A stretch of 64,000 bases of DNA from an uncultured Chlamydiae bacterium (GTDB lineage: Bacteria; Chlamydiota; Chlamydiia; Chlamydiales; JAJFMA01), in assembly GCA_963713615.1 (NCBI GenBank), contig CAVQMM010000001.1:288001-352000 (forward strand), written 5' to 3'. A program made the position numbers and the translations under genes. Shown here piece by piece: positions 7,136 through 63,447 of this stretch; position 1 is the first letter of the stretch, and each line of letters opens with the position of its first letter. The notes below the pieces were generated by a model. It was not told the origin of the DNA. It made no database searches and saw only the letters and a list, made by a program, of their open reading frames with translations.

Positions 7136-7531
7136 TTAGGAGGATAGGATGGCTAACATGGTTCGTTCAACTTTTTAGGAGTAACACGGATGCACACGGA
7201 TCTAGGAGGATTTAGGAGGATAGGATGGCTAACATGGTTCGTTCAACTTTTTAGGAGTAACACGGATGCACACGGATCTAGGAGGATTTAGGAGGATAAG
7301 ATGGCAAACACGGTTCGTGTCGTTTTTAGGAGTAACACGGATGCACACGGATCTAGGAGGATTTAGGAGGATAAGATGGCAAACACGGTTCATTTTCAAC
7401 TATTGTGTTCATTCCACCTTAAAACCTTTTTTTTGTTTTAGATTAACGAACGGTATCTGCTCTCCCAATCCTCCTAAATCCTCCTAGATCCGTGTGCATC
7501 CGTGTTACTCCTAAAAAGCTGAACGAACCGT
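7136..7531. repeat. Family A element: tandem 75-76 bp units plus an inverted terminal unit
   Basis: TTAGGAGTAACACGGATGCACACGGATCTAGGAGGATTTAGGAGGATA at 7175, 7251, 7326; reverse-complement copy at ~7468-7514. Confidence 0.95.
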
Positions 7532-7621
7532 GTGTAGTTAAGTCCATCCACACAATCTTCTTTGTAGTGAAATGACCCTTAGTGATACAATGTAAAGCCT
7601 TTATGAATTCCGTGGAGGGTT

Positions 7622-8593
7622 ATGATGTTCAGTAAATTAAAAGTAGTGTTGGCTGTTTCGATATTGTTATCGTTAAATTCTTTTGTTGAATCAGTCGAAA
7701 ACTCTATCGTTCCTTTGGCGGAATCCGTGCAAATCCGTGCTAACATCGATGCTAGGAAGTATTCGACTTGTCAGTACAAGGAGATTATCTCGGCTCTGGC
7801 TCGAAAGGACGAGAGCATCAGGTTGATGACTTACAATGTGTTATTTCCTCTGCATGACCATGAGCTGCCATCCATTCATCATTGGCCTCAGCGCATTTCT
7901 CGTATCGTAGAATTGATTGCAGAGATGCAGCCTGATATTATTGGTGTTCAAGAGCTCATGCATAGTCAGTTGATGGATCTTCTTCCACACCTATCGAACG
8001 CCTATGCTTTCTTTTCCAGAGAGGGCAAAGACGGTGAGTTAAATGGCTTTTTCTACCGCAAAAACCGCTTTGAGTTAATCGAAACTCGAGTGTGGGGTAA
8101 GGCATTGACAATGCTCCAGCTCAGAGACCAAAAAACCAACAAGTCTTTTGCCGTTTTTAATACCCACTTGGCGTTTGGCAACGTGAATAAACGAGAAAGT
8201 CAGGCTCGCTTTATCGCAGAGGCCATTGACCCATATGCGCGTCGAATGCCTGTCGCTCTAGTTGGGGATATGAACACTTTTCCTCAGCGCCCGGAGTTGT
8301 CAGCTCTGCCATTTCTTGATGGAGACTACATCCAGCGCATTTTTACCCGTGGAGAGCTCGAAGATGCCAGAGATGTCTCAGTCTTGGGGCATATAGGCCC
8401 GCTTAGCACGTTTACTAATAGCCCTCCGGAGACCAATGCATTTTCGGGTATGGGCACTCCTGGCGTATTCTTAGACCATATTTATGTTAACAGCAGGGTA
8501 ACTGTTTTGCTGCATGCCGTGGAGCCTGGAACTGTTGATGGGCATTACCCATCAGATCATATGCCAGTATTTGTTGATTGTGTAATTAATTAA
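7622..8593 (+). CDS. Secreted endonuclease/exonuclease/phosphatase (EEP) family protein
   Basis: Signal peptide; MTYNV, PDIIGVQE, NTHL, GDMN, LDHIY, SDHMPV motifs. Confidence 0.92.
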   Translation: MMFSKLKVVLAVSILLSLNSFVESVENSIVPLAESVQIRANIDARKYSTCQYKEIISALARKDESIRLMTYNVLFPLHDHELPSIHHWPQRISRIVELIAEMQPDIIGVQELMHSQLMDLLPHLSNAYAFFSREGKDGELNGFFYRKNRFELIETRVWGKALTMLQLRDQKTNKSFAVFNTHLAFGNVNKRESQARFIAEAIDPYARRMPVALVGDMNTFPQRPELSALPFLDGDYIQRIFTRGELEDARDVSVLGHIGPLSTFTNSPPETNAFSGMGTPGVFLDHIYVNSRVTVLLHAVEPGTVDGHYPSDHMPVFVDCVIN

Positions 8594-8607
8594 TATAACA
8601 AAAGAAT

Positions 8608-8636
8608 TTGAATTAAAATACCGTACTTGTTATTAT
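8608..8636 (+). promoter_or_regulatory. Sigma66/70-type promoter
   Basis: TTGAAT-17 nt-TATTAT, predicting a TSS at ~8642-8644. Confidence 0.6.
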
Positions 8637-8642
8637 TGAAAT

Positions 8643-8855
8643 TGAAGGGAGGGAAGAGGCTCATCGAACTGACCTCATGCCGACGAAATCCTTGCCTCTG
8701 ACGGCAAGCATTATTTTGAGACTTATTTTGGAAAGCAACAAGATGAGTCTTAACCATAGGATCAGTGGGCTGAGGACTATAATTGTAAATTTGTTTGATT
8801 AGTCAGGCGATTTTCAATTTAGGTTGTTTAGATGAGCTGGTCTCTTTCCCTTCAC
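8643..8855 (+). ncRNA. Candidate structured ncRNA (~210 nt; rod-like, possibly 6S-like)
   Basis: 5' GAAGGGA..GCTCATC..GACCT pairs with 3' AGGTT..GATGAGC..TCCCTTC; inner GAAATC/GATTTT, GCCT..GAC/GTCAGGC, CAAGCA/TGTTTG; 15-bp hairpin with G-U pairs; starts at predicted TSS; no ORF in the track. Confidence 0.55.
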
Positions 8856-8946
8856 AATTGATAAAATAAAAGCTTGCGTTGCTCGAAACGACAAGCTGTA
8901 TTATGTTGACCTCTATTAAAATCGTCCAAGGCGTAGTTTTGATCCT

Positions 8947-9798
8947 ATGAGCGACTCAATAGCCCCATATTCTGCCGATCAAGATCGATGGTATCATTTC
9001 AGATCAAAGGGTATTGTTGCGCCTTTTTCCTCAAATAGTGGATCCTCTTCTGGTATATCTGCCGATACCTATCGAGGGCCTACAGTTGATTCCATCTCAA
9101 AAGGACCTTTAGGACCAGCATTTGACACCTTTCGAGTGGATAGCATAGACATACCGCCGGTGGTGCCCACTATACTGTCTGCCGAAGGCGTATCTGTGTT
9201 TATCGGACCCGACGGAGGTGGAGCTGCAGCGATGATCGTTCGTCCTCCGCAGTTTGAGGCTGTACCGCCTTGGTTGGCTGAGGTGCGCCGCAAGGAGGAG
9301 ATTGAAAAATCTGTGCAGCGCAGTGCGCGAAACGCGCCAGTGGTTCCGGGATCGCCGGGATGGTTATCGGTTTTGGGACGCTTTGTACTGGGACCCGTTT
9401 CGCGGATGACGAGTTTATTCCAGCAGCAGGGAACACGCTTTGTAGAATCGATTCTTGCACCTACAGCTAAGATTTTGGCTAGGCCCATTGTAGCGTTTGT
9501 CCGTTTGTTAGCTAACGTGGCTGGTCATATGATAAGGTTTGTTAATCGTATCGTCCCACCACTATGGGCGCCTATTGAGTGGACATTGATCCAGGCGGGG
9601 AATTGGATAGACAAGCAGTATCAGAGGGTTCAGCCTTATGTAAAAAGGGGCATAGAGCAAGCCTTGGGATTTGGGAAGCGTGTTTTGGACACTCTTATCT
9701 TAGAGGCTCCTAAGGCCGCTTGGGCAATTGTTAAGAGTATCCCAGAATTCCTAGGCAATTGGATAAATGGACTGGCAGATCGCAGTCACAGTCGTTGA
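8947..9798 (+). CDS. Hypothetical protein (S/P-rich N-terminus, amphipathic C-terminus)
   Basis: 283-aa ORF; no family recognised. Confidence 0.7.
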   Translation: MSDSIAPYSADQDRWYHFRSKGIVAPFSSNSGSSSGISADTYRGPTVDSISKGPLGPAFDTFRVDSIDIPPVVPTILSAEGVSVFIGPDGGGAAAMIVRPPQFEAVPPWLAEVRRKEEIEKSVQRSARNAPVVPGSPGWLSVLGRFVLGPVSRMTSLFQQQGTRFVESILAPTAKILARPIVAFVRLLANVAGHMIRFVNRIVPPLWAPIEWTLIQAGNWIDKQYQRVQPYVKRGIEQALGFGKRVLDTLILEAPKAAWAIVKSIPEFLGNWINGLADRSHSR

Positions 9799-9926
9799 AG
9801 CCTGGTATAATTTATCTTTTTTTACATTTAGGGTTTTAAAGAATTCTTTGCTTTGGTACAAGGATAGCGCCGGTAAATTTCCATACTTTTCCAAATGAGG
9901 TCGGCGCGAAATTTTATGACAAGACC

Positions 9927-10091
9927 TATACCACACTCGGTCACAAACTTGGATTTGGACCGCGCCAAAGCTCCTGGGATTCAACGATCGCAAGCGGGTC
10001 CAATATTATCTAAATTTGACCCGTTTGCGATCGTTGAATCTCGGGAACTTTGGCGTGGGCCAAATCCAAGTTTGTGACCGAGTGTGATATA
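9927..10091. mobile_element. Family C palindromic MITE, TA-flanked
   Basis: TATA-CCACACTCGGTCACAAACTTGG...CCAAGTTTGTGACCGAGTGTGA-TATA; core shared with the 15358 and 58113 copies. Confidence 0.9.
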
Positions 10092-11309: not shown

Positions 11310-11640
11310 GCCCATACGCGGAATTTTCACCGCCGAGGCGCATAGAAGGTCGTGGGGCTTTTTTAGGATTTTTACCGCCGAGACACCGAGATAGGAGAGA
11401 GAGGATTAGGAGAGAATGTGCCGTTTGTGTGTCCTTGAGCAAAATTCTGCCCAAGGGCCTCTTGAGGGGTTAGCGTTTTGGTAAAGCCCTTAGACAGCAT
11501 TTTGCCCAAGGACATACAAACGGCACAGGTGCTCAATCTAACTTTTTCGAGGACCTGTTTAGTTGCTACCGAACATTCTTTCCTATCTCGGCGCCTCGGC
11601 GGTGAAAATTCCTAATCCTCTTAGCTTAACGCGCATGGGC
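11310..11640. repeat. Family B palindromic element with nested internal palindrome
   Basis: GGAATTTTCACCGCCGAGGCGC (11320) / GCGCCTCGGCGGTGAAAATTCC (11612); inner IR TGTGCCGTTTGT...ACAAACGGCACA at 11417-11527. Confidence 0.88.
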
Positions 11641-11699
11641 ACGCACACGGGCTCCGACTCGTAGGCAACAGTTTAAATACATATTTTGCTATAATAGAG

Positions 11700-12626: not shown

Positions 12627-13114
12627 GCCCAATAAAACTTCCAACAATTTGTGATGAATTGTCGGGGCGATTTGACTGCCTGTACTACGTAGTGATAGGG
12701 ATAGGAGGAAACCCGGCATAGCACGATAAATTTGTCTAAAGCCTCAATAGCAGTTTCTATGATTTCATTGGTCATTAGAGGAGGCTTGAAGGTCAGCTCG
12801 TCGATGCATTCAGGCGAAGGTAATTCCAGAAACTGAGCGATATCTAACGTTTCCTTGGCGGCAGTACGTATGCGGTGCCTGACCTCTTTGTAGTCGGGGT
12901 CATTAAGCAGAAGCTTCTTGAATTTAGTAGCAATCTCTTCATCATCGATGGCTTTGTGGATGGCGGTCTGCTCGGTTAGTTGGCGCACACGTGTTTCAAG
13001 CAACTCCCAACGATTGGCTTTGAGCTGCCAGAAGAGCATTAGATCGTCGCTTAGACTATGCAATATGGCTAAGTCCCTGAGTTGATTGCGCCATGCCTTT
13101 CTAGAAGTTGCCAT
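12623..13114 (-). CDS. Hypothetical protein
   Basis: ORF from MATSRKAW; upstream extension lies in repeat A. Confidence 0.7.
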   Translation of the reverse strand: MATSRKAWRNQLRDLAILHSLSDDLMLFWQLKANRWELLETRVRQLTEQTAIHKAIDDEEIATKFKKLLLNDPDYKEVRHRIRTAAKETLDIAQFLELPSPECIDELTFKPPLMTNEIIETAIEALDKFIVLCRVSSYPYHYVVQAVKSPRQFITNCWKFYWA

Positions 13115-13620
13115 GGATGCCCACGGATTTAGAAGGTTTAGGAGTAACACGGATGCACACGGATCTAGGAGGATTTAGGAGGATAGGGTAGCAAATACGG
13201 TTCGTGTCATTTTTAGGAGCAACACGGATGCACACGGATCTAGGAGGATTTAGGAGGATAGGATAGCAAATACGGTTCGTGTCATTTTTAGGAGCAACAC
13301 GGATGCACACGGATCTAGGAGGATTTAGGAGGATAGGGTAGCAAATACGGTTCGTGTCATTTTTAGGAGTAACACGGATGCACACGGATCTAGGAGGATT
13401 TAGGAGGATAGGATTAGAATTAGTTTTTTCAGGTCCATAATTTATGTTCAAATCCATCCTATTCAGTCCTAATCCCCCTAGATCCGTGTTACTCCTAGCT
13501 CCTAACTCCTAATCCTATCCTAATCCTCCTAAATCCTCCTAGATCCGTGTGCATCCGTGTTACTCCTAACTCCTAACTCCTAACTCCTAAATCCTAATTC
13601 CTATCCTAATCTCTATCTTA
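13111..13620. repeat. Family A element: four 75-bp units, a degenerate unit and an inverted unit
   Basis: Units at 13138, 13213, 13288, 13363; inverted copy at ~13521-13570 followed by CTCCTAA heptamers. Confidence 0.95.
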
Positions 13621-15357: not shown

Positions 15358-15518
15358 GTACCACACTCGGTCATAAATTTTGGATTTGGACCGCGCCAAA
15401 GCCCCGGGATTCAACGATCGCAAATGGGTCAATATTAGAATATGGACCCATTTGCGATCGTTGAATCGCGGGAGCTTTCGCGTGGGCCCAAATCTAAATT
15501 TATGACCGAGTGTGGTAC
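15358..15518. mobile_element. Family C MITE immediately upstream of the xerD start
   Basis: GTA-CCACACTCGGTCATAAATT...AATTTATGACCGAGTGTGG-TAC, then C-ATG. Confidence 0.9.
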
Positions 15519-21694: not shown

Positions 21695-22446
21695 GAGGTA
21701 ATTGCAGAAGTCCGATTTTTCGAAGTCAATTTCCTGAAAATCGGATGCCGGTGAAGAGAGAGCCATTCCCTTCCCAGGCCCGAAGGGTCGATATTGCAAC
21801 AGGCCATGGCATCGCCATGGTATATGCCAAAACGTGTTTCGCAGTCTGAAGGACTGCCATAAGACGTCAGTATTCACACGCTATTTATACAAGCGCCTTA
21901 TGGCAGCCCTACAGGCTGCGAAATCCCTTCCTGGCATATACCATGGCGATGCCACATAGGCCTCAACCTAAGCCTAACAATCGTATCTCGGCGCGCAGCG
22001 CTTTGGAGTGCGGTCGCTTGCGACCGCTTTGGGTTCCTTGCGACGGTCGTGTGCAACGGCATTACTATAATTCCCTAAGGGTAAAATAGTTAGTACATGC
22101 AGCCTTCGACGAATCCATACAATGCCGTTTAGCATTGCCGTCCCAAGGAACGAAAAGCGGTCGCAAGCGACCGCACTCCAAAGCGCTGCGCGCCGAGATA
22201 CGATTGTGAAGTCCTAAGTCATTGAGATATAAGCTCAAAAGACCTGTTAGGTTGAGGCCTATGTGGCGATGCCATGGCCTGTTGCAATATCGACCCTTCG
22301 GGCCTGGGAAGGGATAAAAGCCTGTCTCTCCAGACTAGATAGTGCCATGCCATTTGAGCTTTCCAGAATCGCCTTCTCGCAAAAAAAGGTTACCTTTTTT
22401 CCTAAGAATCGATCCTTAAGGGCTCAAATAATTTTGCAATTACCTC
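21695..22446 (+). mobile_element. Family D composite MITE carrying a nested H element
   Basis: TIR GAGGTAATTGCA/TGCAATTACCTC; internal IR arms CCCAGGCCCGAAGGGTCGATATTGCAAC. Confidence 0.92.
21955..22263 (+). mobile_element. Family H MITE (309 bp), 11-bp TSD
   Basis: 17-bp TIR CATAGGCCTCAACCTAA; TSD TGGCGATGCCA at 21944-21954 and 22264-22274. Confidence 0.95.
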
Positions 22447-23881: not shown

Positions 23882-23973
23882 GAATCCCCTTTTCTTCAAT
23901 GATAGGTGTCTTAGGAAAATCTGTCAATTGCAGTGATAGATTGGGGGCTTGAGCTTAGTCCTTGTGATTTGAA

Positions 23974-26836: not shown

Positions 26837-26954
26837 AAGCGGGCCATTATGTCTCAAGTGCTTAATTTTTGCAAGATTGTGAAAAATCAAATGGCAAAGA
26901 TGAGCTTTATAAACAAAGACTATTCATAAAAGATTTATATTCAGCAAACAGAAG

Positions 26955-27116
26955 CTACTCTTCTGAGATCATGTTGGTGGATCGCATCAAGAGCCACTGA
27001 TAGATGGGCACAATTTTTATTTGGGGGGAACTCTGGACTAGCAGGCTCTTCTTCTTGAGTGAGGATCAGTCCTTGTTCAACACGAAGTTCTTTCATGGCC
27101 TTAAGTAAGGCTTTAT
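26955..27116 (-). pseudogene. 3' remnant of a paralog of the AAA ATPase at 22589
   Basis: Diverged direct copy of 22589-22749 with one extra base; 5' part absent. Confidence 0.85.
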
Positions 27117-27237
27117 GAGGATATGGACGAATCCAGAATAAAAAACAAAAAAAAATCTTTTTTTTCTTTTTATTTTCAGAAAACTATTGATAGACGATTT
27201 GTGTTTCAACAAATAGGCGCTGCGGTATTATTATGTA

Positions 27238-28689: not shown

Positions 28690-28695
28690 GCAGTA

Positions 28696-32690: not shown

Positions 32691-32785
32691 TCGAGACCTC
32701 CCTCTGATTGGTGCTAGTGAAAGAATTGTTCGGCTAAAACCCGCTTGTAGCCCAAACCCAAAAAGGTGTCAATGGCTTCGTAAAT

Positions 32786-32980: not shown

Positions 32981-32984
32981 CTTG

Positions 32985-35995: not shown

Positions 35996-36625
35996 GGAAT
36001 TTTTACCAGAGGCGCCGAGATAAGAGAAGAGGAGGAAGGAAAAAGAGGAAAGAAAAAATCAGTCCAATCAGTCCATGGTGTCCATAAGAGGTAATTACAG
36101 AAGTATTTGGGCTCTCATGGATCGATTCTTTGAAAAAAAATCACTTTTTTTTGTGAGAAGGCGATTCTAGAGAGCTTAAGTGGTATGGCACTATCCAGTC
36201 TGGAAAGACAGGCTTTTCTCCCTTCCCAGGCCCGAAGGGTCGATATTGCAACAGGCCATGGCATCGCCATGGTATATGCCAGGAAGGGATTTCGCAGTCT
36301 GAAGGACTGCTACAAGACGCCAGTTTACAAACACCATTTATGCATGCGCTTTATGGCAGCCCTACAGGCTGCTAAAACCGTTTTGGCATATACCATGGCG
36401 ATGCCATCGCCTGTTGCAATATCGACCCTTCGGGCCTGGGAAGGGAATGGCTCTCTCTTCACCGGCATCCGATTTTCAGGAAGTTGACTTCGGAAAATCG
36501 GACTTCTGCAATTACCTCATGGTGTCCATAAAGTCCATTTTGGCATCGGTGAAAATGGACTGAATGGACGAATTGGACTGATTGGACGAATTGGACATTT
36601 TTTTCCTCTCCTAACCCTCTTTCCT
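35996..36625. repeat. Family B half-site plus family E (GGAC/GTCC 9-bp tandem palindrome) hosting a D element
   Basis: GGAATTTTTACCAGAGGCGCCGAGAT; GTCCAATCAGTCCATGGTGTCCAT...GGACTGAATGGACGAATTGGACTGATTGGAC. Confidence 0.75.
36088..36518 (-). mobile_element. Family D MITE with a 13-bp direct repeat
   Basis: GAGGTAATT...AATTACCTC flanked by ATGGTGTCCATAA on both sides; near reverse complement of the 41023 copy. Confidence 0.92.
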
Positions 36626-36720
36626 ATTCCCCCCCCCTCCCTCCCCCTTCCCCCTCCCTTTTTAATGGCTGATCATGTATAAACGAGCCGATCATAACAG
36701 CTCTAACCCAAGATAGGTTC

Positions 36721-41022: not shown

Positions 41023-41454
41023 GAGGTAATTGCAGAAGTCCGATTCTCCGAAGTCAATTTCCTGAAAATCGGATGCCGGTGAAGAGAGAGTCATTCCCTT
41101 CCCAGGCCCGAAGGGTCGATATTGCAACAGGCCATGGCATCGCCATGGTATATGCCAAAACGGTTTTAGCAGCCTGTAGGGCTGCCATAAAGCGCATGCA
41201 TAAATGGTGTTTGTAAACTGGCGTCTCGTAGCAGTCCTTCAGACTGCGAAATCCCTTCCTGGCATATACCATGGCGATGCCATGGCCTGTTGCAATATCG
41301 ACCCTTCGGGCCTGGGAAGGGAGAAAAGCCTGTCTTTCCAGACTGGATAGTGCCATACCACTTAAGCTCTCTAGAATCGCCTTCTCACAAAAAAAGGTAA
41401 CCTTTTTTCCCGAGAATCGATTCTCAAGGGCTCAAATAATTTTGCAATTACCTC
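41023..41454 (+). mobile_element. Family D MITE inside a family E palindrome
   Basis: GAGGTAATTGCA...TGCAATTACCTC; flanks ATGGACTAAATGGAC / GTCCATTTCGTCCATGGTGTCC. Confidence 0.92.
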
Positions 41455-43226: not shown

Positions 43227-43386
43227 GGCCTTATTCACCTTTGCGGTCAGTTTTCGGTCGACTGCAAAAGGATCGTCTGTCGCGTTTTGCTCCTCGGACA
43301 TAGCTGGCGCTATGCCCTCGTCACAAACCACGACATCCGACCTTTTTCGTCCGACCGAAATTCTGACCGTAAAGGTGAACAAGGCC
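43227..43386 (+). mobile_element. Family F MITE (160 bp), 8-bp TSD
   Basis: TIR GGCCTTATTCACCTTT/AAAGGTGAACAAGGCC; TSD GATTAAAG on both sides. Confidence 0.95.
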
Positions 43387-43402: not shown

Positions 43403-44155
43403 GAGGTAGTTGCAGAAGTCCGATTTCCGAAGTCAATTTCCTGAAACTCGAATGCCACCGAAGAGAGATAAACGATTCCCTTCCCAGGCCCGAAGGGTCG
43501 ATATTGCAATAGGCCAGGGCATCGCCCTGGTGTATTCCAGAAAGGGATTTCGCAGTCTGAAAGACTGCCACAAGACGCTGGTTGGCATAGACCATTTATG
43601 CATGCCTTTTATCGCAGTCTTTCAGACTGCGAAATACCTTCCTGGCCTATACCAGGGCGATGCCCCATAGGCCTCAACCTAAGCCTAACAATCGTATCTC
43701 GGCGCGCAGCGCTTTGGAGTGCGGTCGCTTGCGACCGCTTTGGGTTCCTTGCGACGGTCGTGTGCAACGGCATTACTATAATTCCCTAAGGGTAAAATAG
43801 TTAGTACATGCAGCCTTCGACGAATCCATACAATGCCGTTTAGCATTGCCGTCCCAAGGAACGAAAAGCGGTCGCAAGCGACCGCACTCCAAAGCGCTGC
43901 GCGCCGAGATACGATTGTGAAGTCCTAAGTCATTGAGATATAAGCTCAAAAGACCTGTTAGGTTGAGGCCTATGGGGCGATGCCCTGGCCTGTTGCAATA
44001 TCGACCCTTCGGGCCTGGGAAGTGATAAAAGCCTGTGTCCACACCAGATAGTGCCATGCTGCCTGAGCTCTCTAGAATCGCCTACTAGCCAAAAAAGATA
44101 ACCTTTTTTCCCAAGAATCGATTCTCAAGGGCTCAAATAATTTTGCAATTACCTC
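43403..44155 (+). mobile_element. Family D MITE (variant) carrying a nested H element
   Basis: GAGGTAGTTGCA...TGCAATTACCTC; arms contain CCAGGGCATCGCCCTGG. Confidence 0.92.
43666..43974 (+). mobile_element. Family H MITE (309 bp), 11-bp TSD
   Basis: Identical by eye to 21955-22263; TSD GGGCGATGCCC at 43655-43665 and 43975-43985. Confidence 0.95.
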
Positions 44156-46512: not shown

Positions 46513-47172
46513 ATGACCTTGGATACAAAGATTAAACCACCGGTTCTTGCCCCGGCAGATGCCACACAAGCGATGAGCAACTGGGTGCTTAAACCCGAAG
46601 CTTGGATGGAGGTAGCGAAGAAGTCTGACAATACCGTTGCACGATTCGCTTGCAGACATGAGACGATCTTGATCCGGATAGGTGTGGCGACCATAGCCAT
46701 GGTATCCGCCTGTATGGATAGTTATTACAATGCTGTCTGGTTCAGCATTAAAGCCGTTATTATTAGTACGCGAGGAACAATTCAATTTTTGACCTTGAAT
46801 AAGTGGGGACATTTTTGTGAGGACGTTACTAGACAGCATCTAGGAATACATCTGTACAAAGCTGTAGCCTTTTTCTGTTCCATATTTTGTGCTCCTTTTG
46901 TGGGGCTTGCAGCTCCTGAGCGCCTTGTAGCCGCCTATCGAAAGCGTGAAATGATCATTACTGAAAAAGAGAAGTCGCTATGGGAAACGGCCTTAGCTAA
47001 GATTAAAGACACCGGTGAGGTAGTTCTGAATGCTGCTAAAGAGATCCCACCGATCGTACTGAAGCATCCTGTAGAAACAGCTGGCGCAGTATTCTTAACT
47101 GCTCTTGCAGCGGGTGCTGCGATTCATCTGCATAAAGTGAATAGAAGGGTAGGCGCTTTGTGGAGGGATTGA
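46513..47172 (+). CDS. Candidate Inc/effector family member 3
   Basis: 219 aa; SACMD.....F.IKA...HLYKA...AP...AAPE core; C-terminal TM. Confidence 0.8.
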   Translation: MTLDTKIKPPVLAPADATQAMSNWVLKPEAWMEVAKKSDNTVARFACRHETILIRIGVATIAMVSACMDSYYNAVWFSIKAVIISTRGTIQFLTLNKWGHFCEDVTRQHLGIHLYKAVAFFCSIFCAPFVGLAAPERLVAAYRKREMIITEKEKSLWETALAKIKDTGEVVLNAAKEIPPIVLKHPVETAGAVFLTALAAGAAIHLHKVNRRVGALWRD

Positions 47173-47175
47173 GGA

Positions 47176-47703
47176 CCTCACAACCATTTCTCGGCGCGTA
47201 GCGCTTTGGAGTCATAGGCATCAACTTAAGCAACTAACTTCGTAAATAGGCGCGCAGCGCTTTGGAGTGCGCGTCGCTCGCAACCGCTTTGGATTTGGGC
47301 GAAGTTGGCATTGCAAGAAACGTAACCCTTCTCTCTAGGGGTAACTGTGGGGGGGGGGGGGGGGGGGGGCAGCCTCCGTAGAACGGTGCGCGATTCAATA
47401 GGCTCGCCCAAATCCAAAGCGGTCGCGAGCGACACGCACTCCAAAGCGCTGCGCGCCTATTTACGAAGTTAGTTGCTTAGGTTGATGCCTATGGCTTTGG
47501 AGAGCGACCGCTTGCGACTGCTTTTCGTTTCTTGCGATGGTTGTGCTACACGGCATTGTAGGGATTCGGTTAGGTTGCATGTGCTATCTAAATAACTCTT
47601 AGCGAATTAAGTGATACCGTTTCACAAGACCGTCGTAAGAAACGAAAAGCGGTCGCAAGCGACCGCACTCCAAAGCGCTACGCGCCGAGAGACGCTTGTG
47701 AGG
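47176..47703. repeat. Family I REP-like palindrome interrupted by an H-type MITE
   Basis: CTCGGCGCG.AGCGCTTTGGAGT...CACTCCAAAGCGCT.CGCGCCGAG arms. Confidence 0.88.
47213..47493. mobile_element. Family H variant MITE (281 bp) with a G21 tract
   Basis: TIR CATAGGCATCAAC.TAAGC; ~10-bp TSD GCTTTGGAGT/GCTTTGGAGA; G run at 47349-47369. Confidence 0.88.
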
Positions 47704-47781
47704 GCTGTGGGCGAAATATTCCATGGGGTCCTGTTGCTTTTGGATTCGCGCTACGCGCCAATAGATTTCCTTGTTAAAAGC

Positions 47782-47833: not shown

Positions 47834-48886
47834 CTAAGCGGCAGCAGAAGCATCATAATTCAGGTAAGCTGCCAAACCAGCAATAGCACTCAATACAACT
47901 GCAGTAATCGTTGACCTCCTACCGCCATATGGGGTCAAAGACGCAGCACCAGACAAACCAGCAACTGCTCCACATCCTATCATAGCCTGGCCCGCGGCTG
48001 ATTGGGCTTTGAACATATCCCATAATTTCGACGCTCTAGACTCTTCCACAGGCTCTCCTGTATCGTCCACCACAGGCTCTCCTGTATTGTCCACAGGCTC
48101 TCCTGTATTGTCCACAGGCTCTCCTGTATCGTCCACCACAGGCTCTCCTGTATTTACAAAGAAGCTCTTAAAGTAATCATATCCGCGGGATACGTTGGAT
48201 TCTATGTTGCCCCAAGCTGTCGTAACCAATGTGTCCTGATAGCCTAATACCTTTTGACCACCATGGAGAGCACCTAAAGCCAGAATAACAATAGCAGGAA
48301 TATGAAGGTGATACTGTTTAGCCACAGATGCACCAGTAACAACACCAGTACTGATAGCGCTACCAGCAGCAGACGTTACATCTTGCTTATGGTTCAGAAT
48401 GTATATCGCCTTGTTTTTGAGGCATTGTTGCGCTTGGATATTAGCCCAAACACCTTTAGGAGCAGGCTCGCCAGAAGCTCCAGGAGCCAACTTGAGGCCA
48501 TCCAGAATCGCCAGAGCTGAGTCGCAGCTAAAGAACGAGGTGAGGGGCATGACGGCGACCATAGTCAAGTCACCACCAGTACGTGCAGTATGCTGGAGGA
48601 TGCTGCTGAGGTTTGCTGTAGGCGCAAAGTCGATTTTTCCGAAAGAAGCGATGTAAACGACAGTTCCAGGAATAAAAATAGCAGTTTTGATAACAGCAGA
48701 AAAGGCCTGCACCAGCGTATCTAGAGCTGCGGATGCGATGGTTACTGCTGGGATAATGGTATGGGCACCAACCCATTTCACACCACCTTCATTAGCCCAC
48801 TGCTTTCCAGTCTTTACCACGTCGGCAGTGGAGGAAAAAGCAGGATCTAAGAACGAGGGGCTCTGAGGTATAGCTGTTACGGACAT
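47834..48886 (-). CDS. Candidate Inc/effector family member 4
   Basis: 350 aa; SAALDTLVQA..AVIKT...LQHTART core; TGEPV repeats; terminal hydrophobic hairpin. Confidence 0.85.
   Translation of the reverse strand: MSVTAIPQSPSFLDPAFSSTADVVKTGKQWANEGGVKWVGAHTIIPAVTIASAALDTLVQAFSAVIKTAIFIPGTVVYIASFGKIDFAPTANLSSILQHTARTGGDLTMVAVMPLTSFFSCDSALAILDGLKLAPGASGEPAPKGVWANIQAQQCLKNKAIYILNHKQDVTSAAGSAISTGVVTGASVAKQYHLHIPAIVILALGALHGGQKVLGYQDTLVTTAWGNIESNVSRGYDYFKSFFVNTGEPVVDDTGEPVDNTGEPVDNTGEPVVDDTGEPVEESRASKLWDMFKAQSAAGQAMIGCGAVAGLSGAASLTPYGGRRSTITAVVLSAIAGLAAYLNYDASAAA
48046..48152. repeat. Coding tandem repeat (5 copies, 21/24-bp period; TGEPV(V)D(D/N))
   Basis: CCACAGGCTCTCCTGTA at 48046, 48070, 48091, 48112, 48136. 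Confidence 0.92.
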
Positions 48887-49026: not shown

Positions 49027-49899
49027 CTAGGGTGAACCAGTGCTGTCAGTGCCAGTACCAGTGCCAGTACCAGTGCCAGTACCAGTGCCAGTACCAGTGC
49101 CAGTATCAGTGTCGTCAGCTCTAGGACCATCGCTACTTAAGAAAGGTATTTTAAAGTTGGAAATATAGTTTAAAACGGCGTTGTAGCTTTCCTTTGCGTA
49201 AGTTGCAACATCTTCAACTCGCGATGTTTCATAACCAAACCACTTCTGAGTGTAGTGACTAACAACTCCAACAACAGGCAGGCCTACAACAACAGCACCA
49301 GCAATGTGCAGTTTGTACTTGTTAGCTACGCTTAAAGAACTAGCCGCAACGTTACCAGCACCGTACATAGACGCTAAAGCAGCTTCTTTAGGATTCTGAA
49401 TAGCGAACTTTGCTTGGTTAGCAATGCCATCTTGAGCTTTTAGCTTATCCCAGAAGCCTTGAGGGGCTTGTTGGCCAGAAGCGCCAGGAGCCAGGTTAAG
49501 ACCATCCAAAATAGACAGAGCAAAGTCTGGGCTAAAGAAGGATGTGAGCGGCATTGCGACGACCATTGCCAGGTTACCAGCAGTACGACCAAGGTGCTGC
49601 AGGATAACTGGCAAGTTGGCACTAGCGCAGATGTCGACTTTACCGAATGTTGGGATGAGAACGACTAGGCGTGCAGCGAACACGACTGTTTTAGCAACAG
49701 TTGCCAGAGCATGTACCAAAGTATCCAATGCTGCAGTAGCTGCCGATGCTACGGGTACTAATGTGTGTGCAGCGATAAACTGTACGCCACCAGCATTATG
49801 CCATCTCTGACCGGCCTTCATTAGGGTCTCGGTTGATGAAAAAGCTGGATCGATTAAATCGCTGAATTTAGGGGTTACGGGTGCTAATAACATGAACAT
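49027..49899 (-). CDS. Candidate Inc/effector family member 5
   Basis: 290 aa; close paralog of 47834 (DPAFSST, MPLTSFFS, LAPGASG); (TG)n tail. Confidence 0.85.
   Translation of the reverse strand: MFMLLAPVTPKFSDLIDPAFSSTETLMKAGQRWHNAGGVQFIAAHTLVPVASAATAALDTLVHALATVAKTVVFAARLVVLIPTFGKVDICASANLPVILQHLGRTAGNLAMVVAMPLTSFFSPDFALSILDGLNLAPGASGQQAPQGFWDKLKAQDGIANQAKFAIQNPKEAALASMYGAGNVAASSLSVANKYKLHIAGAVVVGLPVVGVVSHYTQKWFGYETSRVEDVATYAKESYNAVLNYISNFKIPFLSSDGPRADDTDTGTGTGTGTGTGTGTGTGTDSTGSP
49047..49106. repeat. 12-bp coding tandem repeat x5 (Thr-Gly tail)
   Basis: CAGTGCCAGTAC repeated. Confidence 0.9.
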
Positions 49900-51316: not shown

Positions 51317-51544
51317 CAATCGTCGCTCGGCGCGCAGCGCTTTGGAGTGCGGTCGCTCGCGACCGCTTTTCGTTTCGTGCGATGGCTGTGTGAAACGGCA
51401 GTGTAGGGATTCGGTTAGGTGGCACATACAAACTATTTTACCCTTAATGAATGCGAGTGATACCGTTTCACACAGCCGTCACAAGGAACCCAAAGCGGTC
51501 GCAAGCGACCGCACTCCAAAGCGCTGCGCGCCGAGCGACGATTG
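51317..51544. repeat. Family I REP-like palindrome, stand-alone
   Basis: CAATCGTCGCTCGGCGCGCAGCGCTTTGGAGTGCGGTCGC ... complementary right arm. Confidence 0.92.
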
Positions 51545-51593
51545 TGAGTCAAGAAAACGATATGTATAGCCCCACAAGGGAGAGGAAGATCGG

Positions 51594-55643: not shown

Positions 55644-56018
55644 ATGAAATTAGTGACGTCTATTTTTTTGACCCTTTTAGCGGTATTTCCGCTTTCTATG
55701 GAAGGGGCTCGCCGACCGGACGAACCTACCTACGTTTTAAAACGTTTGCATGCCGGCCCCGATGCTCCCGTGGAGAGTGCCGATCCGGATGAGGGATATG
55801 TTTATGTAGAGGATCCAACTGGACGCTCTTGCCCTGATGGCGAGGATTGCTGCGGTCATTGGACTCGGGTACGTCGCAATCGATGTCGCGATAGTTGGCG
55901 CTGCTATGACCAGCGTACTCCATTGTATGACTATGACATTGAGGGAGATTCGTATGATTCTACCTTCGATTGGCCTGGTCGTAAGACAGACTCGTGGATG
56001 TATGAGGTAAGTCATTGA
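55644..56018 (+). CDS. Small secreted Cys-containing protein
   Basis: Signal peptide, AGGAG RBS, five Cys, acidic/aromatic tail. Confidence 0.75.
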   Translation: MKLVTSIFLTLLAVFPLSMEGARRPDEPTYVLKRLHAGPDAPVESADPDEGYVYVEDPTGRSCPDGEDCCGHWTRVRRNRCRDSWRCYDQRTPLYDYDIEGDSYDSTFDWPGRKTDSWMYEVSH

Positions 56019-56060
56019 GGGCGAGGAGAGAAGGGCGGAGAGAAGGCGGAGATAGGAAGA

Positions 56061-56280
56061 GGAATTAGGAATTTTTACCACAGAGAGCGCCGAGACGCCG
56101 AGATAGGACAGAGAAGATAGGAAAAAGAGAGAGGAAAAATTGAATAATTTTTTATTTTAATAAATAGTAATTGGCAAAAAATATTTAATAAAAAGAAGTA
56201 TTCAAATTTTCCTTTCTTTCTCTCCTCTCTCTCCTATCTCGGCGTCTTGGCGCTCTCTGCTGGTAAAAATTCCTAATTCC
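56061..56280. repeat. Family B palindromic element with AT-rich centre
   Basis: GGAATTAGGAATTTTTACCA.AGAGAGCGCCGAGACGCCGAGATAGG / complementary arm. Confidence 0.9.
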
Positions 56281-56331
56281 CTTCCTCTCCTCCCTCTTTC
56301 TCTCTAACTCGGTTTGGCGTATAATGTCGCC

Positions 56332-58104: not shown

Positions 58105-58106
58105 CC

Positions 58107-58670
58107 ATGGCTTATACCCCCATCGGCCTGAAACTTCGAATTTGGACCGCGCCAAAGCCCCGGGATTCAACGATCGCAAACGGGTCAATATTAGAAATAT
58201 GGACCCGTTTGCGATCGTTGAATCGCGGGAGCTTTCGCGTGGGTCCAAATCGAAGTTTCAGGCCGATGGGGGTATACCAACACCTGATTTTTTACGACGG
58301 ACAATGCGGACTGTGCGACCGTTGCGTACAGATGGTGTTACGTGCCGATAAGAGGCAAATTTTTGCTTTTGCACCCTTACAAGGTCAGACGGCTGAGAAA
58401 ATGCTTCAAGGAATTCCCAGAGACCTCGATAGCGTCATTCTCATCGAAGACTACCTGACTGCGCATCGAAAGATTTATGTGCGCAGCACAGCCGTTTTTC
58501 GCACTTGCTGGTTGCTTGGGGGTGGCTATCGGTTGATCGGCTGGAAGTTCTTTCTGCCTGCATGGCTGTTCGATTGGGGTTACCGCATCGTGGCAAAAAA
58601 CCGGCATCGGTTGGGTGTGTGCCCAGCGGTTCGTCCTGATGCGGGGCACGGCGACCGCTTCTTACCTTAG
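58107..58670 (+). CDS. DCC1-like thiol-disulfide oxidoreductase with an in-frame MITE at the N-terminus
   Basis: FYDGQCGLC, FAPLQG, DWGY..VAKNRH; residues 4-57 are encoded by the family C element. Confidence 0.88.
   Translation: MAYTPIGLKLRIWTAPKPRDSTIANGSILEIWTRLRSLNRGSFRVGPNRSFRPMGVYQHLIFYDGQCGLCDRCVQMVLRADKRQIFAFAPLQGQTAEKMLQGIPRDLDSVILIEDYLTAHRKIYVRSTAVFRTCWLLGGGYRLIGWKFFLPAWLFDWGYRIVAKNRHRLGVCPAVRPDAGHGDRFLP
58113..58276. mobile_element. Family C MITE inside a CDS
   Basis: TATA-CCCCCATCGGCCTGAAACTTCG...CGAAGTTTCAGGCCGATGGGGG-TATA. Confidence 0.92.
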
Positions 58671-58684
58671 CAGTTCGTGGGGCC

Positions 58685-58908
58685 TTTTAGGAGTAACACG
58701 GATGCACACGGATCTAGGAGGATTTAGGAGGATAGGATGGCAGATACGGTTCGTTCTGCTCTTTAGGAGTAACACGGATTGTGTTCATTCCATCTTAAAA
58801 ACCAATTTTATTGTTTTAGATTGACGAGCCGCATCTACCATCCAATCCTCCTAAATCCTCCTAGATCCGTGTGCATCCGTGTTACTCCTAAAAACGAAAC
58901 GGACCGTG
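58685..58908. repeat. Family A element (single unit plus inverted unit)
   Basis: Same arm and same loop (ATTGTGTTCATTCCA.CTTAAAACC) as the 7136 copy. Confidence 0.92.
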
Positions 58909-58909
58909 G

Positions 58910-61900
58910 CTATGCTTGGATTCGGCTGAAGTCGAGGAGCCTCCCAAACAGCCCCAAGACACGTTGAAGCAAGGCAATGCGGTTCTGCTGAACTGCAGGG
59001 TCATCGGCTAGGATTTTGACCTCATCAAAGAGCGATGCAAGGGGTTGCTGAAGCTCTGCTATAAGAACATAGGCTTGCTCATAGTTCTGCTGTTGCAGGG
59101 CTTGCAAGAATGGCCCTTCAAGCGTTTGTAGGCGCTGATCGAGGTTTATCTCGGCCTTTTCACTGAGCAGAGCAGGGGAAAAGGTGGCGATTTTTTGACC
59201 ATCGAGCTGACCACTAGCGCGCTTAAATACTTCAAATAGCAGAGGGAAGCGGTTGTCGGTTGCACGGAAGTCGTGAAGAGCTTTGACGCGTAGGAAGGTG
59301 TCATAGATGTCGCTAACAGCCTGTGCCAAGCTGGCTTCGATCTCATCTTTGCGAACGTCGTATTCTAGGAAGACTGTTTTTACACGGCTGGTGACAAAGG
59401 CTTCCACCTCTTTGAGGACTTGGGCTTTTTGTGCGTGATATTTCTGGGGGAAGTGGTCAAAACAGAGGTCGAAGAGTTGTGGTAGCTGCAGGCGGTATCC
59501 GCCGCGGATGAGAATGCGCACAATACCTAAAACCTGGCGTCGTAGAGCATAGGGGTCACTGGAGGATGTGGGCTTTAGCCCTACAGCAAAGCAACCGAGA
59601 ATGTTGTCCACCTTTTCAGCTAGGCTAACGAGTGTGCCGGCGTCTGAAGTAGGCAGCGGAGCCCCTTCACCGCGTGGCATCCAATGCTCTTCGATGGCTA
59701 GAGCGACCTCATTGTTTTCTCCGTGAGCTTTGGCATAGTAGCGGCCGATGGTCCCTTGAAGCTCGGGGAACTCCCCAACCATGGCTGAGGCGAGGTCTGC
59801 TTTACAGAAAAGAGCCGCCCTTTCGGCAGTGGCGAGGTCGCCGAGAGGCAGAAGGTTATGTAGGACTTTGACGTGTTTGATCAGCCTTTCAACTTTTTCA
59901 TAGATCGTTCCAAGGTCCTTCTGAAAGGTGATGTGTTTTAGTTTCGCGTTGAAACTAGTCAGAGTTGTTTTGAGGTCCTGGTTGTAAAGAAACGCGCCAT
60001 CTTTAAGTCGTGCAGAAAGAACTTTGCGGTTGCCGTGGCGGATGGAGTCTGTCGGTTGGGTGTCTGCAGTGATAACGAAGAGGTTCTTAAGTGTTCCATT
60101 GGCATCGGCTACCGGGAAGTACTTTTGGTGCTCAACCATTTCGGATGTAAGGACTTCGTGAGGGATACTGAGGAAGGCTGGATCAAAATCGGAATAGGTC
60201 AGAGCTGGCCATTCGACTAGATAAAGGACTTGTGGTATGACCTTTTCCCGATACAATAATTGTGCCTTCAGCTCTTTCTCGAGCGCATCAATTTGTTTTT
60301 CAATATCGGCTCTGCGCGTTTCGATATCAGCCAAAACCCAATGCTTCTTGAGCGTTTCGATGTAGGCATCGGCCTGAGGGATGGTGAATTGACCAGGACA
60401 GCGTTGGCGATGCCCTTCTGAAGTATTGCCACTCACGAGGTCACCGACAGCAAAGGGGATCACCGTGTCGTCGATGAGGGCGACCACCCACTTCAGCGGA
60501 CGCGCATAGGTGAGTTCGGAGGTGCCCCAGTGCATTTTTTTGGGAAATTCGAGGTCTACAATGACCTTCGGCAATGCCTCCGCCAGTATAGCCGCTGTGG
60601 AGCGCCCCTCGGTTTTGATTAGAGCAAAGAGGTAGCGGTCTCCCTTGACTTCACGGATTTCTAGTTCGGGATCTGTGCCGGCGATGATCGTCTCATAGGA
60701 TGGAATAACCTTTCCTATCGAGCGGAAAAAACCTTCCGCAGCCTTCGTGGGGTTATGGTCACTGTCGAAAGCATTTGCCAAAGCAGGGCCACGACGTTCG
60801 GTGGCTTCGGCAGGACGACCTAGGGCCAGACCATGGATGCTAACGGCCAGTCTGCGCGGCGTGCCATAGATGGCGACGGATTCATAGGGAATGCCTTCCT
60901 TGCTGAGGATCTGTTCTAGGGCCTTCTGTAGGTTTGCCGTGCCCTTTGGAACGAATGTAGCAGGAAGCTCCTCAGAGCCGATCTCCAGGAGGAAAGTCCC
61001 CTTAGCTGAAGGAGATGCTTTGGCGAGCTTTTCGGGCAACGCACCCACTTGCACTGGAGTGGATTTGGTTTCTGGGGCATGGCGCAGTAGGGGGAATCCA
61101 AGACGCTCGCGGCTGGCAACATATTCCTGTGCCACAAGGCAAGCGAGATCGCGAATGCGTGCGATGTAGCCTGTGCGTTCCGTCACGGAAAAATAGCGAC
61201 GTGCATCTAACATATTAAACGCGTGGCTGGCTTTCATCACAAAGTCATAGGCCGGTATGGGAAGCTTGAGCTCTAGGAGATAACGAGCTTCGCGTTCGTA
61301 GTCGGCAAAATGGCGGAACCACATATCGGTAGAAGCATGCTCAAAATTATAGGTGCTCCATTCGATTTCGCTGGCGAGGTAGATATCGCCATATGTGAGT
61401 GTATCGTTCCACTGAAGATCATAGACGTTATCAACCTTCTGAAGGTACATGGCCAAACGTTCCAGGCCAATGGTCAGCTCTCCAGTAATTGGCTTTAGAG
61501 TTATCCCACCGACGCTTTGGAAGTAGGTATATTGGGTGATTTCCATGCCATCGCTCCAGACCTCCCAGCCCAATCCCCAAGCGCCCAAGGTCGGGGACTC
61601 CCAATCATCATGGACGAAACGGATGTCGTGATCTTTCAGATTTAGGCCGACAGCTTGCAAGGATTGGAGATAGAGGTCCTGCATATTCGGGGGAGAAGGC
61701 TTGAGGATCACCTGATATTGGAAATAATGCTGCAGGCGGTTAGGATTTTCACCATAGCGACCATCGGTAGGACGTCTGCTGGGTTCGACATAGGCAGCGC
61801 GGTAGGGCTCAGGGCCCAGAGCGCGTAGGAAGGTGGAGGGATTAAAAGTACCAGCACCGACCTCAAGGTCATAGCCTTGAAGAAGTGTACACCCTTGTTC

Positions 61901-61948
61901 ATGCCAAAAGTTTGAAAGACGCTGAATGAGTTGCTGAAATGTGAGCAT
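58910..61948 (-). CDS. glyQS: Glycine-tRNA ligase, fused alpha/beta
   Basis: [30 protein letters not shown] fused to [26 protein letters not shown]. Confidence 0.97.
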
Positions 61949-62144
61949 AGAATACCTAACCACCTGGCTGTAAATTGTGACGCCAAGTGTACTGCGCAGA
62001 CGCATTTCTCTCAACAGCAGAACGAAGCATCTCATTAATGGATTTGTGATAGTTTGTTCAATTGTTCTGTTTGGATTGACTAAAAGTAGTGACTGTGAAA
62101 AACTAGACACCCTTAGCAAGAATAAACATGTTAAAAAGGGGTAA

Positions 62145-62855
62145 ATGATGGTTTCGATAAAAGATTGCGTTCTTTATGTTCCTTTGGTTGCGGCATCAAC
62201 TGCGGGTTTTGCTGGCGCTGTAGGTGGATTAATATGGCGTGAGGCCAATGGCATCGAGCATACCTTTAAGATTACTAAAGATGTTGTTGAGAATGCATGT
62301 AAGGACTTTACCTTCCTTAAGGCCATTAACGATCCAATGCAGGAGCTTGCCAAGGATCAAATCGGCTACAAATACTGCTTTTCTGGGCTATGCCTTACAT
62401 TGAAAAATAGCGGTCCAGCAGTGTTATGCCTCAGTATTTTAGGGCTATCCTATTTTGCTGCTAAAATAGATAAAAAAACTAAGTGGATGGGGATATTAGC
62501 AGGCGCTTTGCCCATGGCTATGGGTATTTTGGCGGATCGGAACATTCAGCCGTTGTGGGCTGATGCATTGGGATCCGTGGGATTTAGCCTAGAAGCTTCC
62601 GGACACATAGCGATGATGTCAGCTGTTGGTCTAGCCTTAGGATTAGCCGACCGTTGCGCCAGCAATACCAAGAGTTGGAGCTTGGTACGAGTTATAACAG
62701 CGTCGATTGCTCTTGCCTACAGTATTGGCACGGCTGTTTTGGTATTTAATACCGCTGCTTGTCGTCACACCGTGGTCGAAGTTCTAGATGGGATATCTTG
62801 GTTTGGAACAGTTGGGATTATTTTGAGTGGAATCGCTGTGGTTGCTTCCCGCTAG
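62145..62855 (+). CDS. Hypothetical polytopic membrane protein
   Basis: 236 aa, several hydrophobic segments. Confidence 0.78.
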
Positions 62856-62889
62856 TATTTAGACCCTAGCGGTAGGAAAGGACTTTAAG

Positions 62890-63013
62890 CAGCAATTCCC
62901 GCTAAAAAATGACATAACACCCCAGAATGGGGTGTAAGAGATTAGCCCAGGGTCAGGCCGCCCCGATAGGGGCAACGCAACCCTGGGTAGAGGTGAATTA
63001 GCGGGAATTGCTG
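62890..63013. mobile_element. Family G MITE (124 bp), 9-bp TSD
   Basis: 16-bp TIR CAGCAATTCCCGCTAA; TSD GACTTTAAG at 62881-62889 and 63014-63022. Confidence 0.9.
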
Positions 63014-63021
63014 GACTTTAA

Positions 63022-63301
63022 GTGGTAATTGCAAAACTATTTGAGCCTTTGAGAATCGCCTTCTCGCAGAAAAAGGGGCCTTGTTCACCTTTACGGTCAG
63101 AATTTCGGTCGGACGAAAAAGGTCGGATGTCGTGGTTTGTGACGAGGGCATAGCGCCAGCTATGTCCGAGGAGCAAAACGCGACAGACGATCCTTTTGCA
63201 GTCGACCGAAAACTGACCGCAAAGGTGAATAAGGCCGAAAAAGGTAACCTTTTTTCCTAAGAATCGATCCTTAAGGGCTCAAATAATTTTGCAATTACCT
63301 C
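63022..63301. mobile_element. Mini family D element (two right-type ends) hosting an F element
   Basis: GTGGTAATTGCAAAA.TATTTGAGCC ... GGCTCAAATAATTTTGCAATTACCTC. Confidence 0.85.
63077..63236 (-). mobile_element. Family F MITE (160 bp), 8-bp TSD
   Basis: Exact reverse complement of 43227-43386; TSD GAAAAAGG. Confidence 0.95.
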
Positions 63302-63447
63302 CTCCTATCTCCGTGCTCTCTGTGGTAAAATTCTAAAAAGCCCCACAAATTTTAAAAAACGAAACTAACCAAATAGATGAACTAATGCGTTCACCTGTTT
63401 GGTTAGTTTATTTTTTTGTTTTAAACATATAATTTTAAAACTATTTA

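What the first reader, a model, noticed from the sequence alone, without database searches (positions are those of the whole stretch)
7136..63333. MITEs with different end chemistries all carry REP-like hairpin cargo
Seen: five element types have distinct ends and TSDs (C TA, F 8 bp, G 9 bp, H 10-11 bp, D 13 bp in one copy). Their interiors are GC-rich hairpins: GGAGTGCG..CGCACTCC in H, CCAGGGCATCGCCCTGG and GCCCGAAGGGTC in D, GCCCAGGG..CCCTGGGT in G, CATAGC..GCTATG in F. The H cargo also occurs free as family I (47176, 51317). There are about 25 elements in 64 kb and no transposase. Inference: DDE-type ends capture REP/REPIN-like palindromes and spread them, giving a layered selfish-DNA system or a distributed set of RNA-structure modules, unexpected in a chlamydial genome.
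Basis: partly seen in the sequence, partly recalled or inferred. Interest (0 to 1): 0.8.

Follow-up and report, generated by a model that had tools for sequence, protein, structure and literature searches.

The report
Transposon ends carrying captured REP hairpins
In this environmental chlamydia, short transposon ends enclose intact hairpin repeats that match the repeats beside its own single-strand nuclease genes, and the same ends enclose many unrelated hairpins in other bacteria, so one kind of selfish DNA likely spread by riding inside another.

Summary
Largely confirmed and extended. Five end types exist; D's usual duplication is 4 bp, not 13, and G has only 2 copies. D and H interiors are not IS remnants: they match repeats beside two single-copy Y1 (RAYT-like) genes of this genome. 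D ends also carry two other Y1-linked cargos. In a second chlamydial genome, 16 of 17 D elements match flanks of three of its own Y1 genes. H ends are IS4-family (IS231-like): in metagenomes they bound 1.4-1.7 kb IS4 elements and 27 short elements with 17 unrelated interiors. About 95% of one REP family's copies sit in D shells or their fragments. Layers nest because D, H, IS66 and IS1634 insert into such repeats. F's partner is an IS whose DUF6399 protein is predicted DDE-like. Not shown: free cargo for C and F, D's transposase, the capture step, any RNA role. Precedent: Coxiella QMITE2. The scan noted REP-in-MITE nesting before in another genome (e1-6827031, unchecked).

The parts
21695..22446 (+). 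D shell + R3 REP doublet, with H nested inside
21955..22263 (.). H element (IS4/IS231-type ends, 11-bp duplication) carrying an R6 doublet, inserted in the R3 hairpin
36088..36518 (-). D + R3 doublet; the 13-bp-duplication copy; inserted in a GGAC/GTCC (K) repeat
41023..41454 (+). D + R3 doublet, no duplication, K-repeat flanks
43227..43386 (+). F element, 8-bp duplication; ends shared with the DUF6399 IS at C1:1035800-1037682
43403..44155 (+). D + R3 doublet with H nested
43666..43974 (.). H element with R6 doublet, 11-bp duplication
47168..47714 (.). free R6 doublet whose left arm is interrupted by an H element
47213..47493 (.). H3 variant (symmetric arms) carrying the second R6 spacer type
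51317..51568 (.). free R6 doublet, no shell found
62890..63013 (.). G element, 9-bp duplication, hairpin cargo, inserted at the tip of a D shell
63022..63301 (.). D shell without REP cargo, holding an F insertion
63077..63236 (-). F element, 8-bp duplication
9929..10089 (.). C element, TA-flanked near-perfect palindrome
15359..15517 (.). C element
58115..58274 (.). C element
7136..7534 (.). A-family repeat array, not a MITE; the same repeat brackets a GxxExxY gene at C1:1921790
36519..36630 (.). K (GGAC/GTCC) repeat, the target of D; the same repeat type brackets four-helix-bundle-like genes at C1:1850843 and 3217661

Best explanation
Short IS-type ends (D, H, G) enclose whole REP doublets that match the repeats beside single-copy Y1 (RAYT-like) genes, and the units were likely copied through the genome by DDE transposases acting in trans after the hairpin repeat had entered a small shell or the non-coding end of an IS. 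Step 1 (inferred): a REP doublet enters a MITE or the region just inside an IS left end, probably through its own HUH nuclease or recombination, and the transposase gene is later lost. Step 2 (shown by duplications and near-identical copies; the enzyme is inferred): the shell is amplified by cut-and-paste with its own target duplication. Step 3 (shown): because D, H, IS66 and IS1634 prefer REP-like targets, layers nest: K repeat > D > R3 doublet > H > R6 doublet > IS66/IS1634. Step 4 (inferred): hairpin collapse and refilling exchange the cargo.
For: Y1 gene L003 is followed by arrays of the whole D cargo without D ends; RAYT L006 (NF047646 83.7 bits, cut-off 80) has 3+3 inverted copies of the H cargo. 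D ends also hold R6 (C1:1790184, 2647468, 2670956) and the L002 repeat (C1:3816692). H cargo starts at the boundary where free copies stop being conserved; 66 of 73 H-borne doublets form one 95% cluster while 41 free ones fall into 23. 240 of 283 R3 half-units lie in D shells, 13 by the Y1 gene with a different core, and most of the other 30 are D fragments. In G061, 16 of 17 D elements match flanks of three of its own Y1 genes; in G065, 3 of 3 match its own. H ends bound IS4 elements (5 of 5 proteins pass NF033592) and 27 short elements in 17 interior groups, 23 of 27 folding at z<-2 against 3 of 32 IS windows. Intermediates: IS4 element L169 has REP hairpins between left end and transposase; G-bounded relic L342 has a GxxExxY fragment 148 bp inside its left end; G061's 69-bp D (L051) keeps a hairpin whose halves flank a second cargo in L246/L249. 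Targets: 203 of 224 H ends in R3/R6, 225 of 328 D ends at GGAC/GTCC (random 1%), 34 of 36 IS66 ends and 14 of 14 IS1634 ends in R6.
Against: No transposase with D ends was found; 43 of 114 D pairs have no duplication and many have inverted flanks. No IS4 transposase was found in this 99%-complete genome with the L133 query or among 32 DDE_Tnp_1 hits, and no IS630 for C, although H copies are 99.7% alike. F and C cargo have no free form here. D interiors from G062 (5 loci), G063 (2) and L101 matched no Y1 flank, and G064's matched other genomes' Y1 flanks but none of its own 13. Empty shells (C1:3510752, L051) may be deletion products. Some 'free' R6 doublets lie in decayed D-like shells. The capture step was not observed.
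Confidence: 0.7

Rival explanations
1. Capture happens by end-swapping of REP-targeting IS elements: an IS or MITE inserts beside or in a REP cluster and the transposase pairs its end with a second nearby end, with no HUH step.
For: H, D, IS66 and IS1634 do insert into these repeats; L169 shows three stacked left ends separated by REP halves; IS231 elements are known to carry extra DNA behind the left end (PMC2266710, passages).
Against: H cargo starts at the natural outer edge of the R6 repeat, not at H's own target sites inside the stem; no inner pair of ends is left in the main H and D subfamilies.
Confidence: 0.15
2. The MITEs are the ancestors and the free REPs are their truncated remains, as proposed for Coxiella QMITE2; interiors come from IS or host DNA.
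For: Fits F (115 of 120 core hits in F pairs, the rest in related shells) and C; several apparently free R6 and most non-D R3 copies are shell fragments.
Against: Cannot explain inverted copies bracketing single-copy Y1 genes without shell ends, three Y1-matched cargos in one end type, or 17 unrelated interiors within one 18-bp end. IS4 elements with H ends have the transposase frame almost abutting both ends.
Confidence: 0.08
3. The elements are kept as distributed RNA-structure modules (terminators or stabilisers) selected by the host.
For: Strong folding; mild enrichment of D and H between convergent genes (27% and 31% against 18%).
Against: F and C show no such bias; copies are nested, tandem-amplified (4 D arrays) and young; the D-end motif is missing from 2 of 3 same-genus genomes searched. 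Side effects on transcripts are not excluded.
Confidence: 0.07

Closest known systems
QMITE2 of Coxiella burnetii (PMC5896051; passages read)
   Same: A MITE with TIRs and 7-11 nt direct repeats that contains a REP, with shell-less REP-like copies, and is a target for an IS (IS1111).
   Different: One family, read by the authors as REP = truncated MITE. Here several end types each carry several cargos, and cargos match Y1-gene flanks in the same genome.
REPIN/RAYT and TnpA-Y1 systems (PMC3116915, PMC6006769, PMC8266576, PMC3733652; passages)
   Same: Inverted REP doublets, single-copy Y1 genes bracketed by their own repeat family, dispersed intergenic copies.
   Different: Most copies here lie within DDE-type ends with target duplications. 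L002 and L003 carry the Y---Q--HH signature of subclass 1.2, described there as generally without IS200 terminal structures, yet are flanked by repeats.
IS4 family, subgroup IS231 (PMC2266710; passages and Table 1); mobile insertion cassettes (name recalled)
   Same: H ends fit CAT-------AA--TAA, duplication 10-11 bp, target preference, passenger DNA behind the left end.
   Different: Passengers here are non-coding REP doublets; hosts lie far outside the Bacillus cereus group; the subgroup (IS231 or ISH8) was not resolved by a tree.
IS elements that target REPs (IS1397, IS621, IS1594; PMC3184786 passages)
   Same: Insertion into REP hairpins.
   Different: Here the inserting units are themselves REP-carrying MITEs, which gives up to six nested layers.

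Membership tests
MITE | Terminal inverted repeats, no transposase, under about 500 bp, multicopy | tested here: met
   D 113, H 103, F 126, C 20 paired; G only 2 here, more in relatives
MITE | Target-site duplication | tested here: met
   F 102/126, H 62/96, G 2/2, C TA; D weaker: 44/114 at 4 bp, 43/114 none
MITE | Interior derived from the parent IS by deletion | tested here: not met
   F matches its IS only over the terminal 26-35 bp; H interiors do not match IS4 coding DNA
MITE | Mobilised in trans by a matching transposase | not testable with these tools
   Partner present for F, found elsewhere for H and G, not found for D and C
IS4 family (H) | Ends bound an IS4 transposase gene | tested here: met
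   5 of 5 proteins over the NF033592 cut-off
IS4 subgroup IS231 (H) | CAT-------AA--TAA ends and 10-12 bp duplication | tested here: met
IS4 subgroup IS231 (H) | Transposase clusters with IS231 proteins | not tested
   no tree built; ISH8 shares CAT ends
IS701 (considered for D) | 4-bp duplication, and ends bounding an IS701 transposase | tested here: inconclusive
   4 bp is modal, but the two IS701-like genes here have no D ends and the published end signature does not fit
IS630 (considered for C) | TA duplication, and ends bounding an IS630 transposase | tested here: inconclusive
   TA present; no DDE_3 hit in the genome
RAYT/REPIN (R6 with L006) | Y1 gene passing the RAYT model, bracketed by inverted REPs that also occur free as doublets | tested here: met
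RAYT/REPIN (R3 with L003, R2 with L002) | Protein passes the RAYT model | tested here: not met
   22 and 26 bits against cut-off 80; they pass the IS200 model and show the subclass 1.2 signature. They work like REP-flanked Y1 genes
RAYT/REPIN | Cleavage of the repeat by the Y1 protein; GTAG-type guide | not tested
   cleavage needs biochemistry; guide motifs were not scored
DDE transposase, IS256/hAT-like (DUF6399, partner of F) | RNase H core with helical insertion, invariant acidic residues, gene between TIRs with 8-bp duplication | tested here: met
   pLDDT 84 model; top Foldseek hits Hermes and ISCth4 (E 5e-5 to 7e-4, TM about 0.3); D166, D221, H243, E473 invariant in 61 sequences; activity untested

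The most novel reading that the evidence does not exclude
A general shell-and-cargo system: across bacteria, the ends of several DDE IS families serve as interchangeable vehicles for the REP-type repeats of domesticated nuclease genes (Y1/RAYT, GxxExxY, four-helix-bundle and others), so that many MITEs arise by cargo capture and serial exchange, not by internal deletion, and many REP families owe their genome-wide spread to DDE transposases, not to their own enzyme.
Probability: 0.45. Interest if true: 0.8.

Novelty: new variant of a known kind. Interest (0 to 1): 0.63.

Why it matters
How REPs spread is described as unresolved (PMC8266576, abstract and passages), and MITEs are usually said to come from IS deletion (PMC3189936, passage). 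This genome offers a measurable second route for both: about 95% of one REP family's copies sit in or derive from one DDE-type shell, and the same shells hold other Y1-matched cargos in other genomes. It gives defined substrates (an 18-bp IS4 end with intact transposases, three Y1 proteins with their repeats) for a direct test. It also assigns DUF6399 (at least 1563 homologues; no paper in the library names it) to a predicted transposase family with known ends and an 8-bp duplication.

Tried and rejected
Search for D's transposase: own-genome pairing with internal ORFs (only IS66, IS1634 and IS110 nested inside), 89 genome loci, five D-rich genomes, plasmids (2 chance hits), 20 viral loci (chance matches in genes), 20 regions from the phylum scan: none found. 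The 2.2-kb H and 3-kb D elements looked autonomous but are IS1634 and IS66 insertions. IS701-like genes of the genome were rejected as D's parent. The search for related loci for the DUF6399 protein found nothing. Public runs hold the organism only at low depth as contigs: no empty-site or expression evidence; of 5 loose flanks checked, 3 were occupied sites shared with this genome and 2 were not in it. A generic TIR+TSD screen found no further large family. G's candidate transposase (L347, 455 aa) has no NCBIfam or Pfam hit. The cargo family labels for metagenomic H elements (GIY-YIG-, DUF559-, RAYT-type repeats) are recalled resemblances and were not tested. Literature searches; supplements were not opened (Di Nocera's REP lists and the IS4 end alignments could bear on family names).
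Full report
Setting. The window is C1:288001-352000 of a 3.97-Mb, 99%-complete genome. A fused glycyl-tRNA synthetase and a same-genus genome whose matches coincide with a record titled uncultured Chlamydiae support a chlamydial origin. About 372 kb of the genome lies in 1004 high-copy segments.

Observation. Self-BLAST gives 23 repeat segments in the window. Fourteen elements belong to the five bounded types: D x5, H x3, F x2, G x1, C x3. Genome-wide, F has an 8-bp duplication in 102 of 126 pairs and H 10-11 bp in 62 of 96 (that pairing includes false pairs with an IS66-internal look-alike); D has 4 bp in 44 of 114, 13 bp in 3, none in 43. G has two copies, both 9 bp. C gives 14 TA-flanked pairs. 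No transposase family was found in 57 of 72 window ORFs. The other window repeats have no shell: A and B bracket two GxxExxY genes, K brackets four-helix-bundle-like genes.

Cargo. The genome has six Y1 genes. L006 passes the RAYT model and has three inverted copies of the H cargo (R6) on each side. L003 is followed by arrays of the whole D cargo (R3) without D ends; it and L002 fail the RAYT cut-off and carry the subclass 1.2 signature. A homologue in another chlamydial family is bracketed by R3-like repeats (L014). Of 140 R6 doublets, 73 are in H, 3 in D, 23 have one shell end and 41 are free; 66 of the 73 form one 95% cluster while the 41 fall into 23, and H holds both spacer types. Of 47 free or half-shelled doublets, 28 had no inverted pair in their flanks and 19 had one (control 12 of 100), some being decayed D-like shells. 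Conservation of free copies ends where H cargo begins. Of 283 R3 half-units, 240 lie in D shells, 13 by L003 with a different core, and 30 elsewhere, of which 20 have the exact D-type core and by eye all but a few keep D arms. D ends also hold R6 and the L002 repeat, and empty forms exist. F's core has no free form: all hits lie in F or two related 8-bp shells. G's cargo is single here; C's has no partner.

Ends. H ends fit the IS231 signature (PMC2266710 Table 1). Of 123 metagenomic loci with this end, 47 were paired; 27 passed a strict filter as short elements and 11 as long ones (two are one contig, one is decayed). Five of 5 proteins tested are IS4. The 27 interiors fall into 17 unrelated groups; 23 of 27 fold at z below -2 against 3 of 32 IS windows; the only match to an IS interior is a REP upstream of the transposase in L169. 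No such transposase was found in this genome. F ends belong to an intact 1883-bp IS with a DUF6399 protein; F matches it only at the last 26-35 bp, and the model resembles Hermes and ISCth4 (TM about 0.3). A G-type left end precedes a 455-aa transposase-like ORF in G019 (other end not assembled). D's and C's enzymes were not found.

Replication elsewhere. The D-end 15-mer occurs in 74 of 401 chlamydial genomes, mostly as single hits, with 13 or more copies in six; the reversed control gave 3 hits; 2 of 3 same-genus genomes lack it. It also bounds elements in Planctomycetes, Armatimonadia and Lentisphaerae records. Against 32 Y1 loci, 16 of 17 D elements of G061 matched flanks of three Y1 genes of G061 itself, and 3 of 3 of G065 matched its own; G064's one element matched only other genomes' flanks; G062 (5 loci), G063 (2) and L101 matched none. 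G ends in relatives hold several interiors.

Nesting. 178 of 224 H ends sit in the R3 hairpin and 25 in the R6 stem; 225 of 328 D ends sit at GGAC/GTCC words (random 1%); 34 of 36 IS66 ends and 14 of 14 IS1634 ends sit in R6. Median identity is 1.00 for F, 0.997 for H and 0.947 for D, so amplification is likely recent.

Mechanism. Shown: shells, duplications, cargo identity with Y1 flanks, many cargos per end, target preference. Inferred: entry of the doublet into a shell, trans-mobilisation, cargo exchange. Three possible intermediates favour entry behind an IS left end followed by loss of the gene: L169, L342, and L051 with L246/L249. D copies without duplication and with inverted flanks are probably recombinants between D copies (inferred; tandem arrays fit). 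Against: missing enzymes for D, H and C here, and empty shells that may be deletions. The RNA-module reading has only mild positional support and no expression test.

Comparison. Papers were read as passages or single sections only: PMC3733652, PMC3184786, PMC5896051, PMC10969869, PMC2266710, PMC11602168, PMC3189936, PMC6006769, PMC8266576, PMC3116915; no supplements. QMITE2 is the one MITE-with-REP precedent found, read there in the opposite direction. Eight searches found no description of interchangeable REP cargo in IS ends; the library lacks most subscription journals. The scan has an unchecked note of the same kind from another genome, seen after my reading was formed and not counted as support.

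Verdict. A real, layered system built from known parts in a little-described arrangement: new variant of a known kind, interest 0.63. The broad shell-and-cargo reading has probability about 0.45 and would deserve 0.8.

Noticed in passing
G000:C1:1035800-1037682 (L009); broken copy near C1:3024577: Unclassified IS with 16-bp TIRs and 8-bp duplication encoding a 559-aa DUF6399 protein predicted to be a hAT/IS256-like DDE transposase; partner of 126 F elements.
   Followed up: yes
G000:C1:1855174 and 1921790; window 7136-7534, 13112-13595, 58670-58916, 11320-11660, 32782-32986, 56017-56308: Two GxxExxY (PDDEXK_3) genes are each bracketed by inverted copies of one of the window's shell-less repeat families (B and A), a REP-like pairing; one paper search found no description.
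   Followed up: partly
G000:C1:1850843 and 3217661: Four-helix-bundle-like genes (23S_rRNA_IVP, below cut-off) flanked by GGAC/GTCC repeats, the target of D.
   Followed up: partly
L004 and L005: Two long Y1 genes preceded by short repeats that fit the GGGGWSAS motif of TIRYT genes (PMC3733652); L004's locus holds a duplicated gene segment.
   Followed up: no
G000:C1:476526-478848, 1173286-1175135, 2273505-2280484, 2600817-2603020: Head-to-tail arrays of 4-9 D elements with short K-repeat spacers.
   Followed up: no
L347 (G019:C259) and G000:C1:1035174-1038567, 3157973-3158935: 455-aa transposase-like ORF behind a G-type left end, with no Pfam or NCBIfam hit; broken homologues in this genome. 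G ends in relatives hold at least four different interiors.
   Followed up: partly
L251 (G061:C4): D-type ends 607 bp apart enclose what looks by eye like a small osmC-type gene; no duplication, may be two half elements.
   Followed up: no
L259 (G061:C7), L317, L319: C-like interior with different TA-flanked ends nested in D; F-like hairpin cores inside D ends in two other chlamydial genomes (by eye).
   Followed up: partly
window 47350-47370: Run of about 21 G in the spacer of an H3 element; other copies have shorter runs.
   Followed up: no
G000:C1:3037627-3044956: Regular repeat array that looks like CRISPR.
   Followed up: no
window 601-7060: Chemotaxis-type cluster (MCP, CheA-like hybrid, CheW x2, CheR-TPR).
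   Followed up: no
window 27238-31752: Y-family polymerase-like gene followed by a DnaE, resembling an imuB-dnaE2 mutagenesis pair (recalled).
   Followed up: no
window 48045-48154 and 49047-49123: In-frame tandem repeats (21-24 bp and 12 bp units) in two ORFs of no known family.
   Followed up: no
window 22589-23899, 25736 region, 26890-27230: AAA_14/DUF4143 gene whose 5' part recurs as a fragment near 26940.
   Followed up: no
G000:C1:3084003-3085934: Rhs-like ORF between two related small HEAT-like ORFs, resembling a toxin-immunity layout.
   Followed up: no
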